A stretch of 64,000 nucleotides of DNA from NCBI RefSeq assembly GCF_055900595.2, contig NZ_CM148325.1; one strand, given 5' to 3'. Position 1 is the stretch's first letter. Each line of letters opens with the position of its first letter. Below, in pieces: positions 30,424-33,400 of this stretch. A program made the position numbers.

Positions 30424-33400
30424 TAAATTATACCCCAAAAGTAACTTGATACGGGGTGAAGGCGGTTGGCCTCTGGTTACAAAGAAATCCTGATATATAA
30501 GGGATTAGAGGGGGTTTTGTTGACGTCGGGAGAGTTCAGAAGAGGCATGTTGGCGGAAGATCACAGATGGTGACCAGCTTGGCATTAAAGTGGTTATAGG
30601 CATAAAAGCGCACACCAAATACCCAGGGTTTCAGCAAGGGATTATTGGTCGGGATCTGCCGGTGGTGTCCTGCTAATACCCGGCTGGCCGTTTCATCATA
30701 AAATTCAAGCAGTTCAATGATGTCTTTAACTGTCGTGGGAGGAAAATCCTCGCATTCACGTATTACAGCCGACATGACTTTACCAGATACCCGGGAAATA
30801 TGGCCTTCAGCAATCTTACGTATCAAGCTTTCCGTACATGGCGGTCAGGATGAATGACATTTTGCAATTCTGCGATATATGGTGCCAGAAGCTGGCTAAA
30901 AACACGCTTCTCTTCATGACTGGCAAGGCCATAGCACGACATGTACTTGTCAGCTAAGCTGACCAAATACTGTGCTGAGTTCCGACCAGTTATGGTAGTT
31001 ATAACGTAATGCCACTGCATCCCGGGCGTAGCTTAGATTGATATTGAGCGACCGTGAAAGGTATTTGGCGTGGGCTTTTGCTTCAGCGCATGTGGGGATT
31101 TGTTTCATGGTTTAAGTCTCTTATCTGTCCTATGTGCTCACGAATCATAAGAATCAAAGACACTTAACCAAAAAAGATTTGATAAGTCTGCGCTGCATTC
31201 CGCTTTGGCCGTGAGCTGCCGGGTCGCGCTAACCTTGTGCTTAACGTATTGGAAAGTAGCACCATTGTCAACAGAGCCATTGACCCTGCCGGGCTAACAG
31301 AGAGGTTAGACATGAAGCGAGGTGCGATGCTGGCAGGCATCAGGTGAGGGGCTGATACCACACTTCTGCCATGGTTTCTGAATTATCAATGTCCGCTTTT
31401 GGGCATAGACGAGATTCATGCTCGGCAGGGACCGTAGCAAGCGAAAAGCGGAGGTTCGGGAAGGTTGTGATTTGCTTTTAACCTTTGTAATTTAGAAGTA
31501 TTATTTTAAGATTAATCCACTTCCCATCGTCATCCTTTCGGTGTTCGTGAAAAGCTATTTTTAAGGTTATTGCCTCATGGAGTTATGGATATTTATAGTA
31601 GCGATTTATTTGATTTATATTCTTTTTTTCAAAAAGAAGAAAACTAAGTCCGCGGGCTCTTATACTTCCGCTCCTGTGAAAGCACCACCTAAAGAATGGC
31701 TTGCTAATAACAAAAAAAATCAGTCTGTAATGCACAACGAGGACAGCGAAGATGACAATCTGGCTACGTTTACACTAAGTGGCGGGCGGAATGCCGAATA
31801 CAGTATAACAGCCACTCAACGCCAGAATTTCTCAAAAACTACCGGTGCTTTGGCTCGCTGGATTTTACCGGGGGAGGTGATCACAGTCGGTGGGGTAGAG
31901 GTTACCGGCGGCTACTTCTATCTTGGACAGCGAATGAACCCTGTCGGGCATAACTCAGGCGGTTATTATGATGATAGTAGCGAGGCATCGCTAATTGACG
32001 ACACGCTCAAGATATACCCCACATCTTACATCTACGAAGATAGTTCATTAGGGTATTGGCCCAGTTATTCCTCACTTTCACCTGAAGCACGTGGCGCGTA
32101 CCTGAGTTGGCTTACCAGCGACAGATGTGACACTTCTTGCCCAATTGGTTACGTTTTTATTTATCTGTATGGTCTGGAAAGACGGGCGCTTGTTGACAGC
32201 AGGGACAGCAATATATCTGACGATGAGTTCTATTCTCTTTTCAAAGAGATCTGCCGTCTCAGATCTGTTTTCAATGAAAACAGATCATTCCGGAACTACT
32301 CGTCCCAGTTACTTGAAGCGATGTCCATTCTTCGTCCGAACGAAAATCTTGCAGCAGCTCTCAGCGATGATTCAGAGTTCAGCAATAGCATGCAGTTCAG
32401 GTTAATCCTGGCAAAGACTGTTGATGCAGGAGCCCCGGTTCCAGCGGATCTGGCTCTGACGTGGGTGACAAACCATACTGAATACTCATTACGAACCCCC
32501 GCCCGCCGCTGTGCGAAAGAATTTGCTGCACTATTTAAACGGCGTTACACCCTTAAATACGGTGAAGGGATGGTAGTGAAGCCGAATAAAGCGCGTCTGC
32601 GTTTAGATTACACGCCTGCAAGTCCCAGTTTGAGAGGTATTCGGCTTCCTGTTCCTGACTTGCCTGATCCAAGTGCATTGAAAGGCCCTGTTCAGAAGCT
32701 TATGACTCTTGCTGATATATGCACAGGTGAACTGGATGCTTACAGTCGTTACCTTGGTAGAAAAGGCACTTCAGCAAATGATACCGTTGCAATTTTGTTG
32801 CTGCCTTCAGAAATCGTTAACGAAAGCGCAGATAAAATATTAAGTGCATTCAAACGCTGGGCTGATGACGCGATCCTCAGTAAGGGGGGAGTAGTTTCAG
32901 TTGCTGACTTCTGGTCACACATGAATGCTACCTGTCCGGCAAAGATCAACAAAAAAGAGGCCGACTTGATGCAGGCCTTTGCACAGAAAATGGGGTACTG
33001 CCTGGCTCCTGACCCCTATTACCACCACGTAAAAGCAGATGTCGATGGTGTTCTTGTTTTATTCCCTGCTGGTGAAAGTGGCCGCTTCTCTCCTTCTCCT
33101 GAATTTATCACAGCTGTATTGACGCTCCGATTAGGTTCGGTAGTCGCCTTGATTGACAATTCTTTCGATCAAGCCGAACAGAAAGTGCTTGAGAATGCCA
33201 TCAACAACAATGTCAGCTTCAGCGATGATGAAAAGCGCTCTCTGCACGCATATTTAACGTGGCAGCTTCATACCCCGGCGAATATGACGGGAATGAAAAG
33301 CCGGATTGAATTACTCGGTGCAGCGGAAAAATCAGCTGTGGGTAAGGTTATCGTTAGTGTCGCTTGCTCTGACGGCAGAATTACGCCTGCCGAAATCAAA

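What the first reader, a model, noticed from the sequence alone, without database searches (positions are those of the whole stretch)
30536..31080. Degraded divergent gene immediately upstream of the Shango-like operon
Two adjacent minus-strand ORFs in different frames lie divergent to sngA, with IS21 fragments just beyond. This may be a former partner or regulator gene disrupted by frameshift.
Basis: inference. Interest (0 to 1): 0.25.

Follow-up and report, generated by a model that had tools for sequence, protein, structure and literature searches.

The report
Dead mobile gene beside Shango operon
The two small reverse-strand ORFs are pieces of one dead gene, broken by two frameshifts and cut off by a stray tRNA-Sec fragment; it was not part of the neighbouring Shango phage-defence operon, but its relatives all carry a conserved, previously uncatalogued folded leader RNA that survives intact here.

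Summary
Window 31108→30565 (minus strand) is a pseudogene. It is collinear with intact 302-aa proteins (92% identity) across three reading frames.

Three lesions killed it:
- a +T at 30952, which creates an immediate TGA;
- a −C between 30835 and 30834;
- a 3' truncation in codon 182.

At the truncation the gene is fused to the last 16 nt of tRNA-Sec (30551-30566) plus about 185 bp of a selC-island integrase-proximal arm. An IS21 istB remnant cuts that arm in turn. About 155-159 of 5,426 complete E. coli genomes carry each lesion; only 10 carry the intact gene.

Intact copies in Enterobacterales and Motilimonas are followed directly by a GIY-YIG/T5orf172 nuclease gene, which is lost here. That pair occurs with Shango (E. 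coli A33, Salmonella) and without it (E. coli Combat13F7, Providencia, Pectobacterium next to CBASS). It is therefore an independent neighbour, not a Shango partner.

The protein has a helical N-terminal domain and a GNAT-like C-terminal fold, and matches no known family. Every family member has a conserved promoter and a ~125-nt leader RNA with two kissing hairpin loops. Covariation support is strong and there is no Rfam match. This leader is intact in the window (31237-31109).

The finding itself is ordinary gene decay. The family and its leader RNA are the interesting by-product.

The parts
30950..31108 (-). Pseudogene piece 1: start codon and codons 1-52 of the ancestral 302-aa gene, ending in a premature TGA made by a +T insertion at 30952
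   Evidence: ORF list. DNA alignment to the intact copies L007 and L008. Per-site comparison with four intact copies and two other decayed assemblies.
30836..30949 (-). Pseudogene piece 2: codons 53-91, read in a shifted frame (part of the 65-aa ORF 30823-31020). It ends at a 1-nt C deletion between 30835 and 30834.
   Evidence: The -C allele is identical in 159 complete E. coli genomes.
30565..30834 (-). Pseudogene piece 3: codons 92-181, back in the original frame. Homology to intact genes stops at 30565, inside codon 182, so the last 121 codons and the whole downstream nuclease gene are missing.
   Evidence: BLAST of the intact gene against the window covers reference nt 1-544 only. Alignment.
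30536..30826 (-). The 96-aa ORF that RefSeq annotates in relatives (WP_123863910.1). It is a chimera: a TTG start inside the old gene, and a C-terminal tail (CDLPPTCLF) encoded by the tRNA-Sec fragment and the island arm.
30551..30566 (-). The last 16 nt of tRNA-Sec (selC), CTGTGATCTTCCGCCA on the minus strand. It shares 2 nt (30565-30566) with the gene at the junction.
   Evidence: About 2,500 E. coli genomes match here at their tRNA-Sec gene. Alignment to the Nissle selC locus. ARAGORN finds no complete tRNA here.
30365..30550 (-). Fragment of the integrase-proximal arm of a selC-inserted island, i.e. the sequence that lies between tRNA-Sec and a P4-like integrase in other strains. The integrase itself is absent.
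   Evidence: 81.6% identity over 217 nt to the Nissle-type selC locus L010, where it sits between tRNA-Sec and the integrase gene.
30049..30342 (-). IS21-family istB remnant (C-terminal third only), abutting the arm fragment
   Evidence: Pfam PF01695, 3.2e-43, profile positions 152-238 of 238. RefSeq note in relatives: 'missing N-terminus'.
31109..31237 (-). Intact structured 5' leader RNA of the dead gene. Helices: P1 31229-31226 with 31193-31190; P2 31220-31218 with 31209-31207; P3 31152-31146 with 31134-31128; kissing-loop helix 31216-31210 with 31142-31136.
   Evidence: Covariance model R1 scores 120.9 bits here, the only hit in the window. Covariation counts. No Rfam match.
31243..31271 (-). 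Putative sigma-70 promoter of the leader and gene: TTGACA (31271-31266), a 17-nt spacer, then TACGTT (31248-31243)
   Evidence: TTGACA with a 17-18 nt spacer and a TAnnnT-like hexamer is seen at the same place in 12 of the 13 diverse loci read by eye; the 13th (L013) has too little upstream sequence. It falls below the threshold of the consensus scan, so it is inferred.
31577..37401 (+). Context, not part of the pseudogene: the intact Shango operon sngA (31577-33886), sngB (33890-35206), sngC (35203-37401)
   Evidence: PADLOC SngA 2.4e-101, SngB 1.3e-187, SngC 8e-278.

Best explanation
The region is the decayed 5' 60% of a mobile accessory gene that sits beside the Shango operon but does not belong to it.

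The ancestral unit had four parts: a sigma-70 promoter, a ~125-nt structured leader RNA, a 302-aa protein (helical N-terminal domain plus a GNAT-like C-terminal domain) and, one nucleotide downstream, a 268-aa GIY-YIG/T5orf172 nuclease gene.

In this E. coli argW island the protein gene was inactivated three times. A +T at 30952 gives an immediate stop after codon 52. A -C lies between 30835 and 30834. A rearrangement then replaced everything after codon 181, including the nuclease gene. What replaced it is a scrap of a selC-island left end (16 nt of tRNA-Sec plus the integrase-proximal arm), itself cut by an IS21 remnant.

Shown: no product longer than 52 aa of the original protein can be made, and the partner gene is gone. 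Inferred: the promoter and leader RNA, which are intact, may still be transcribed.

The ancestral function is also inferred. The unit looks like a self-contained conflict or defence cassette in which the leader RNA and GNAT-like protein are the constant core and the downstream enzyme is exchangeable (nuclease, HD hydrolase, helicase-like, or none).
For: Pseudogene:
- Intact 302-aa homologues cover 95% of the concatenated translation at 92% identity.
- The DNA alignment pinpoints +T, -C and the break.
- Neither indel lies in a homopolymer run longer than 2 nt, and the first creates TGA at once.
- The lesions are shared by 155, 159 and 158 complete genomes respectively, against 10 with the intact pair.

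Junction:
- 30551-30566 equals the 3' end of tRNA-Sec.
- 30365-30550 equals the tRNA-to-integrase spacer of selC islands.
- The IstB remnant is confirmed.

Independence from Shango:
- The pair occurs without Shango in L018, L004 and L006.
- Upstream homology in the Shango-less E. coli locus ends at window 31499, before sngA.
- There is no PADLOC hit.

Partner:
- A T5orf172/MUG113 gene lies 1 nt downstream or overlaps by 4 nt in E. coli, Salmonella, Providencia, Pectobacterium, Lelliottia, Motilimonas and a metagenome relative of 34% identity.
- An HD_4 partner is found in three marine loci and a DEAD-like partner in one.

Fold:
- The AlphaFold2 model has pLDDT 92.3.

Leader RNA:
- One covariance-model hit per locus in 33 loci, always directly upstream of the family gene.
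- 93.8% of cells are paired, and 14 of 21 pairs show changes on both sides.
- 0 of 500 shuffles reach the observed value on four of the five measures (5 of 500 on further pair types). Slid controls give 24-50% paired.
- The kissing helix was not part of the model, yet it takes 8 different sequences that stay complementary.

Context: neighbours include type I RM, TIR, CBASS, BrxR, AbiGi, a BsuBI/PstI RM system and ICE or plasmid modules.
Against: - The defence or conflict role rests on neighbourhood only. No PADLOC, Pfam, NCBIfam or PHROG family matches the 302-aa protein.
- In several loci the protein has no adjacent partner, and some contexts also carry anti-restriction genes. An anti-defence or plasmid-establishment role is therefore equally open.
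- The GNAT similarity is moderate (Z no higher than 6.6; Foldseek E above 0.2). I saw no canonical acetyl-CoA loop motif.
- The leader's single-sequence fold energy is not better than shuffles (z = -0.39), so the structure rests on covariation.
- Transcription of the leader in the decayed locus is untested.
- The order of the three lesions and the mechanism of the selC fusion are unknown.
Confidence: 0.88

Rival explanations
1. The gene is a former accessory or regulatory component of this Shango subtype. Its loss would be tolerated, or would alter Shango activity.
For: The divergent arrangement, with a ~470-bp intergenic region 93-94% identical where measured, recurs in Salmonella (L008), E. 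coli A33 (L011), Eco_23-2667 (L019) and metagenome contigs such as L007.
Against: The pair is found without Shango in E. coli Combat13F7, Providencia and Pectobacterium. More distant relatives sit on plasmids and conjugative elements with other neighbours. Shango as described comprises a TerB protein, an ATPase and a helicase, and PADLOC models exist for exactly those three. About 158 E. coli genomes keep a full-length sngABC with the gene dead.
Confidence: 0.06
2. The small ORFs are genuine independent small genes, as RefSeq annotates two of them: a 96-aa and a 52-aa hypothetical protein.
For: PGAP calls WP_123863910.1 (96 aa) and, in one strain, WP_001361538.1 (52 aa). The 52-aa piece keeps the native promoter, leader, ribosome-binding site and start codon.
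Against: All pieces are collinear fragments of one 302-aa protein. The 96-aa ORF needs an internal TTG start, and its last residues are encoded by a tRNA fragment and island arm. Three derived non-synonymous changes lie in its last 11 gene-derived codons. The model places residues 1-52 as part of a larger helical domain.
Confidence: 0.04
3. The frameshifts are sequencing or assembly errors, or programmed recoding sites, and the gene is really intact up to the junction.
For: The two indels are +1 and -1, so the original frame is restored after 39 codons.
Against: Identical alleles occur in 155 and 159 independently assembled complete genomes. There is no slippery or homopolymeric context, and the +T creates an in-frame TGA at once. 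Intact relatives have neither indel. The 3' truncation would kill the protein regardless.
Confidence: 0.01
4. The conserved upstream element acts at the DNA level rather than as an RNA. The inverted repeats would be operator half-sites for a dimeric regulator, possibly the family protein itself.
For: Inverted repeats that change together could also reflect co-evolving protein-binding half-sites. The single-sequence fold energy is unremarkable.
Against: Four separate helices covary, including 3-bp and 4-bp ones with unequal spacing. G-U pairs (about 18 cells) are tolerated on the coding strand only, and they would be C-A mismatches on the other strand. The element starts just downstream of a conserved promoter and ends at the ribosome-binding site. 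RNAalifold recovers P1 and P2 independently.
Confidence: 0.1

Closest known systems
Shango anti-phage system (SngA TerB-domain protein, SngB ATPase, SngC helicase; Millman et al. 2022, bioRxiv 10.1101/2022.05.11.491447)
   Same: It is the immediate divergent neighbour in the same island. The two travel together in some E. coli and Salmonella islands.
   Different: There is no homology to any Sng protein. The dead gene's family occurs without Shango, and Shango is full-length here while this gene is dead.
GNAT-fold acyltransferases, including the tRNA-acetylating toxins TacT/AtaT (PDB 7ak7, 6g96) and the anti-CRISPR AcrVA5 (6iuf)
   Different: No Pfam GNAT model matches. No canonical Q/R-x-x-G-x-G/A loop was seen. 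There is an extra ~150-residue helical N-terminal domain. Catalysis is untested.
GIY-YIG / T5orf172 (MUG113) nuclease-domain proteins of phages and defence islands
   Same: In the closer relatives the intact gene's partner carries this domain at its C-terminus (PF13455 1.9e-8, PF10544 2.1e-6).
   Different: The partner is entirely deleted from the window. Its N-terminal ~165 residues are unassigned, and it matches no PADLOC model (only PDC-S57 at 0.045).
Left junction (attL) of selC-inserted genomic islands with P4-like integrases, e.g. the island next to tRNA-Sec in E. coli Nissle 1917
   Same: The 3'-terminal 16 nt of tRNA-Sec are followed by the same spacer that precedes the integrase (81.6% identity over 217 nt).
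   Different: Only a ~200-bp scrap is present. It lies in an argW island, fused inside a coding sequence. There is no integrase and no complete tRNA.
RNA regulators built on loop-loop (kissing) contacts, such as the L2-L3 contact of purine riboswitches or ColE1 RNA I/RNA II (recalled from general knowledge, not tested)
   Same: Two hairpin loops are joined by a 6-7 bp Watson-Crick helix that covaries. The element sits in a 5' leader ending at the ribosome-binding site.
   Different: There is no sequence or model similarity to any Rfam 15 family. The second hairpin lies ~55 nt outside the P1-enclosed domain. The ligand or protein partner is unknown.

Membership tests
Pseudogene (decayed copy of a longer gene) | Collinear homology to one intact ORF across more than one reading frame | tested here: met
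   302-aa homologues cover 95% of the concatenated pieces at 92% identity.
Pseudogene (decayed copy of a longer gene) | Disabling lesions that are real rather than assembly artefacts | tested here: met
   +T at 30952, -C at 30835/30834 and truncation at 30565. These are shared by 155, 159 and 158 complete genomes.
Shango defence system | Homology to SngA (TerB), SngB (ATPase) or SngC (helicase) | tested here: not met
   PADLOC gives no hit for the reconstructed or the intact protein, while the three neighbouring genes hit SngA, SngB and SngC strongly.
Shango defence system | Constant co-occurrence with sngABC | tested here: not met
   The pair occurs without Shango in L018, L004 and L006. It occurs with Shango in L008, L011 and L019.
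GNAT acyl-CoA N-acyltransferase superfamily | GNAT alpha/beta fold | tested here: met
GNAT acyl-CoA N-acyltransferase superfamily | Sequence-profile match and the acetyl-CoA pyrophosphate-binding loop (Q/R-x-x-G-x-G/A) | tested here: not met
   No Pfam or NCBIfam GNAT hit. By inspection of alignment A1 no such motif lies between the REWD strand (184-187) and the 208-225 helix. Binding was not tested.
Two-gene cassette with a GIY-YIG/T5orf172 nuclease | Nuclease gene immediately downstream | tested here: not met
   It is absent from the window, because homology ends at 30565 and is followed by selC and IS21 scraps. It is present in intact loci.
tRNA-Sec (selC) gene or island attachment junction | Identity to the 3' end of tRNA-Sec followed by the island arm | tested here: met
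   16 of 16 nt match, and the arm is 81.6% identical over 217 nt including those 16 nt.
tRNA-Sec (selC) gene or island attachment junction | Complete tRNA and/or adjacent integrase | tested here: not met
   ARAGORN and Rfam find only tRNA-Arg at 46003-46077. The integrase position is occupied by an IstB remnant.
IS21 family element | IstA and IstB coding regions | tested here: inconclusive
   Only C-terminal fragments are present: IstB profile positions 152-238 of 238, and the IstA Mu-transposase C-terminal domain. Terminal repeats were not examined, so this is a remnant and not an element.
Any Rfam 15 RNA family (for the leader) | Covariance-model match | tested here: not met
   No hit at gathering thresholds. 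At E up to 10 there are three matches in 31090-31580, all to unrelated families far below their gathering scores (E 0.45-7.6) and none on the leader.
Structured cis-regulatory RNA (riboswitch-like leader) | Conserved secondary or tertiary structure supported by compensatory changes | tested here: met
   93.8% of cells paired; 14 of 21 pairs changed on both sides; 0 of 500 shuffles reach the observed value on four of five measures. The kissing helix has 8 variants.
Structured cis-regulatory RNA (riboswitch-like leader) | Ligand or protein binding that controls expression | not testable with these tools
   Needs in-line probing, reporter fusions or binding assays.
Type III toxin-antitoxin (RNA antitoxin repeats before a toxin gene) | Tandem RNA repeats upstream of the protein gene | tested here: not met
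   There is a single-copy leader, with one covariance-model hit per locus and no repeat array seen in the alignments.

The most novel reading that the evidence does not exclude
The dead gene belongs to an undescribed RNA-plus-protein module of mobile elements. Its parts are a conserved kissing-loop leader RNA (a new structured RNA class, absent from Rfam 15), a GNAT-like protein, and an exchangeable downstream enzyme (GIY-YIG nuclease, HD hydrolase or helicase-like). On this reading the module is a new anti-phage or anti-plasmid system, or a counter-defence system. The RNA would be its sensor or switch, or the protein's substrate. In about 158 E. coli genomes only the promoter and RNA survive.
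Probability: 0.35. Interest if true: 0.6.

Novelty: new member of a known kind. Interest (0 to 1): 0.33.

Why it matters
For annotating this window it settles three points. The small ORFs beside Shango are debris of one gene and should be marked as a pseudogene. They do not extend the Shango system. The 96-aa 'hypothetical protein' in RefSeq is a chimera ending in a tRNA-Sec scrap.

Beyond the window, the intact relatives define a small protein family with no entry in Pfam, NCBIfam, PADLOC or PHROGs. The family sits in defence islands, ICEs and plasmids. It always follows a leader RNA with unusually clear covariation, including a loop-loop helix that takes eight different complementary sequences. 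That makes it a compact candidate for a new riboregulator and possibly a new conflict system.

The gene decays repeatedly. There are at least four independent broken alleles, and 158 decayed against 10 intact copies in complete E. coli genomes. This hints that it is costly or quickly becomes dispensable.

Tried and rejected
- Pfam, NCBIfam, PADLOC and PHROGs scans of the reconstructed and intact proteins gave only sub-threshold noise. These included a weak N-terminal resemblance to the Glyoxalase_8 N-terminus and to PRK05973 (E 0.043 and 0.0039).
- A PDB sequence-profile search found nothing usable.
- Foldseek against PDB and BFVD gave no hit at E of 0.001 or better. The afdb50 library was unavailable.
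- An exact leader pattern was absent from the 100,044 species-representative genomes. A protein-pattern scan of the same set found only 2 loci, in Lelliottia and Motilimonas.
- The full 40-sequence alignment was too divergent for the search for related loci.
- I looked for an explanation of the selC scrap in the intact E. coli islands. A33 and Combat13F7 sit at leuX, and Eco_23-2667 sits in the argW/dsdA region. None is at selC, and none carries the arm. The scrap's origin stays open.
- Secondary-site integration by a selC-type integrase was considered. The gene and tRNA share only 2 nt at the break, and the flanks show no real similarity.
- Coding potential of the conserved upstream block was considered, in particular the 65-aa ORF 31164-31361. 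I rejected it by inspection: substitutions between distant loci are not concentrated at third positions, and one locus has a 3-nt indel with divergent flanks.
- The first short-query count for the +T allele was uninformative because the window has a private SNP at 30949. I repeated it with the L001 allele.
- Literature searches for a described T5orf172 two-gene system of this kind found nothing matching.
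Full report
**What is at the coordinates.** One search confirms two minus-strand ORFs in different frames, 30536-30826 (96 aa, TTG start) and 30823-31020 (65 aa). 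A third, 30950-31108 (52 aa), overlaps the second and extends past the finding's end. They lie divergent to a three-gene operon on the plus strand. PADLOC assigns it to Shango: SngA 2.4e-101, SngB 1.3e-187, SngC 8e-278. To the left are an IstB C-terminal fragment at 30049-30342 (PF01695, 3.2e-43, profile positions 152-238 of 238) and an IstA C-terminal fragment at 29590-29886.

**Genomic setting.** The window is an E. coli island inserted at argW. tRNA-Arg(CCT) lies at 46003-46077, with an integrase next to it and yfdC beyond. Nearly identical DNA, 99.8-99.9% over 30340-31580, is present in about 160 complete E. coli genomes from birds, humans and pandas.

**One gene, three lesions.** I concatenated the three translations and searched 5.8 billion proteins. 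The search returned 302-aa proteins covering 95% of the query at 92% identity (P0001), 80% (Providencia), 68% (Pectobacterium) and 63%. Aligning the window to DNA that encodes intact copies (metagenome contig L007, Salmonella L008) shows three differences:
- an extra T at 30952, which turns ...AGC GAC... into ...AGC TGA and stops translation after codon 52;
- a missing C between 30835 and 30834, which returns the reading to the original frame 39 codons later;
- an end of homology at 30565, inside codon 182 of 302.

Neither indel lies in a homopolymer run longer than 2 nt. Intact copies from four E. coli or metagenome sources lack both. Two other assemblies, AMSCJX02 and FY10, share both.

Short-query counts over 5,426 complete E. 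coli genomes give 155 exact copies of the +T allele, 159 of the -C allele and 158 of the junction. The window has one private SNP at 30949. Only 10 genomes carry the intact gene with its downstream partner. The lineage-specific substitutions are 5 non-synonymous and 6 synonymous. Three of the non-synonymous ones fall in the last 11 retained codons. This fits decay after inactivation, but the numbers are small.

**What replaced the 3' end.** Just past the break the minus strand reads CTGTGATCTTCCGCCA (30566-30551). This is the exact 3' end of tRNA-Sec. The next ~185 bp (30550-30365) are 81.6% identical to the spacer between tRNA-Sec and a P4-like integrase in selC islands such as the one in Nissle-type strains.

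The gene and the tRNA fragment share only 2 nt at the joint (30565-30566). No integrase follows. Instead the arm abuts the IstB remnant at about 30343-30364. ARAGORN finds no tRNA there. The 96-aa ORF that RefSeq annotates in relatives therefore ends in residues encoded by a tRNA scrap and island arm.

How a selC-island left end came to sit inside a gene in an argW island is unresolved. Secondary-site integration, aberrant excision and plain illegitimate recombination all remain possible. The intact E. coli islands I inspected sit at leuX or in the argW/dsdA region and lack this arm.

**Not a Shango component.** In every intact Enterobacterales locus the 302-aa gene is followed after one nucleotide by a 268-269-aa gene with a C-terminal T5orf172/MUG113 domain of the GIY-YIG superfamily. 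Pfam gives PF13455 at 1.9e-8 and PF10544 at 2.1e-6, and RefSeq calls it 'GIY-YIG nuclease family protein'. The same pairing holds in Lelliottia, in Motilimonas (29% protein identity) and in a metagenome relative of 34% identity.

The pair lies divergent to Shango in Salmonella, E. coli A33 and Eco_23-2667. It occurs without Shango in three places:
- E. coli Combat13F7, next to DUF3659 and TIR proteins in a leuX island;
- a Providencia ICE-like region;
- Pectobacterium, next to a CBASS operon and a BrxR-like regulator.

In the Shango-less E. coli locus, upstream homology to the window stops at 31499, short of sngA. Neither protein matches a PADLOC model. The two cassettes are thus linked in one island lineage but are separate units.

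**The protein family.** An exhaustive HMMER scan of 1.84 billion cluster representatives found only 54 clusters, mostly ~300-aa proteins. The 100,044 species-representative genomes contain two members. Pfam, NCBIfam, PHROGs and PDB sequence searches give nothing above noise.

The nearly invariant residues are Y169, E185, D187, W207 and G227. I did not see the canonical acetyl-CoA loop, so 'GNAT-like fold' is as far as the evidence goes.

The downstream partner varies in more distant members:
- an HD_4 hydrolase in three marine loci, one of which also has an Xre_MbcA_ParS_C protein;
- a DEAD-like helicase fragment in one locus;
- no adjacent partner on a plasmid beside a BsuBI/PstI restriction-modification system, on a conjugative element, and elsewhere.

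A constant protein with exchangeable enzymes, in defence islands and mobile elements, suggests a conflict module. This is inference from context. Several contexts also hold anti-restriction genes, so a counter-defence role is equally open.

**A conserved leader RNA (found in passing).** Aligning upstream regions showed a block far better conserved than the proteins. It is still recognisable in front of relatives that share only 29-36% protein identity. In 12 of the 13 diverse loci it begins just after TTGACA, a 17-18-nt spacer and a TAnnnT-like hexamer, and it ends at the ribosome-binding site. The 13th locus has too little upstream sequence to tell.

It contains a short stem P1 enclosing a hairpin P2, and about 55 nt further on a hairpin P3. 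The P2 loop (GCUCACG in the window) is complementary to the P3 loop (CGUGAGC).

A covariance model built from P1, P2 and P3 only finds exactly one copy per locus in 33 loci, always directly upstream of the family gene, and one copy in the window at 31237-31106 (120.9 bits). On the resulting alignment:
- 93.8% of cells are paired;
- 14 of 21 pairs show changes on both sides;
- no shuffle in 500 reaches the observed value on four of the five measures (5 of 500 on further pair types);
- sliding the partners drops pairing to 24-50%.

The kissing helix was not in the model, yet it takes eight different sequences. These are GCUCACG, GCUCACA, GCCCACA, GUCCACA, GCCCAAA, GCCCAGA, GCCCAUA and GAUCGCG, each matched by its complement. 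One distant locus, L055, has changed P1, P2, P3 and the kissing helix all at once and still pairs throughout.

RNAalifold recovers P1 and P2 independently, plus a small extra hairpin. G-U pairs are tolerated on the coding strand, which favours RNA over a DNA operator. Rfam 15 has no match. A metagenome pattern scan returned 23 true copies, all upstream of the family gene, and 5 chance hits. The single-sequence fold energy is unremarkable, so the case rests on covariation. The window copy differs from intact E. coli copies by two substitutions, one of which turns a U-A pair into U-G, and it keeps every helix.

**Verdict.** The finding is real and is ordinary gene decay in a mosaic island. It is a pseudogene with two frameshifts and a truncation; its nuclease partner is deleted, and it is fused to debris from a selC island and IS21. 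The frameshift interpretation is right. The Shango-partner interpretation is not supported. The locus cannot make the ancestral protein; only the promoter, the leader RNA and a 52-codon stub remain. The gene is also broken independently in Salmonella (211 + 91 aa) and in three other protein clusters. What is new is the uncharacterised family and its strongly covarying kissing-loop leader, which deserve experimental follow-up independently of this window.

Noticed in passing
window 31109-31271 (minus strand): A conserved promoter and a ~125-nt leader RNA with P1, P2 and P3 helices and a covarying loop-loop helix precede every member of the 302-aa family. The leader has no Rfam 15 match and is intact here although the gene is dead.
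   Followed up: yes
L008 10001-10908 (Salmonella); protein clusters P0004, P0007, P0008: The same gene is broken by different, independent frameshifts elsewhere: 211 + 91 aa in Salmonella, and 181-, 114- and 154-aa fragments in other clusters. This suggests recurrent decay.
   Followed up: partly
window 37883-38899 (+): A 338-aa hypothetical gene with no Pfam or PADLOC match follows sngC. It travels with Shango in Salmonella (L008) and E. coli Eco_23-2667 (L019) but not in E. coli A33 (L011). It may be an optional accessory of this Shango subtype or simply the next cargo gene.
   Followed up: partly
window 39543-41903 (+): A 786-aa protein has only an HsdR N-terminal (PF13588/PF04313) domain match and no adjacent HsdM or HsdS. 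It may be a standalone restriction-like gene in the same island.
   Followed up: no
window 46003-46077 (-) and about 44637-45827 (-): tRNA-Arg(CCT) (argW) with an adjacent phage-type integrase marks the island's insertion site. The Shango operon and the pseudogene are cargo of an argW island.
   Followed up: partly
window 15980-16102 (+), 20324-20393 (-), 26698-26849 (-): There are three Rfam gathering-score hits elsewhere in the window: isrC sRNA (150 bits), IS10 RNA-OUT (97 bits) and a group II intron D1-D4 domain (89 bits). This fits a heavily IS- and intron-ridden mosaic.
   Followed up: no
L013 1070-2166; L030; L035: In marine relatives the family gene is followed by an HD_4 phosphohydrolase instead of the nuclease. 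In L013 a small Xre_MbcA_ParS_C (antitoxin-type) protein follows that. This is an effector swap within the family.
   Followed up: partly
window 31278-31499 (minus strand): A further ~220 bp upstream of the leader's promoter is conserved: 94% in the Shango-less E. coli locus and partly in Providencia. It contains a 65-aa ORF (31164-31361) of doubtful reality, and its role is unknown.
   Followed up: no
window 27017-29303 (-): Zinc-binding alcohol dehydrogenase and MFS transporter genes overlap by 29 bp and sit between the IS debris. They are metabolic cargo unrelated to the defence genes.
   Followed up: no
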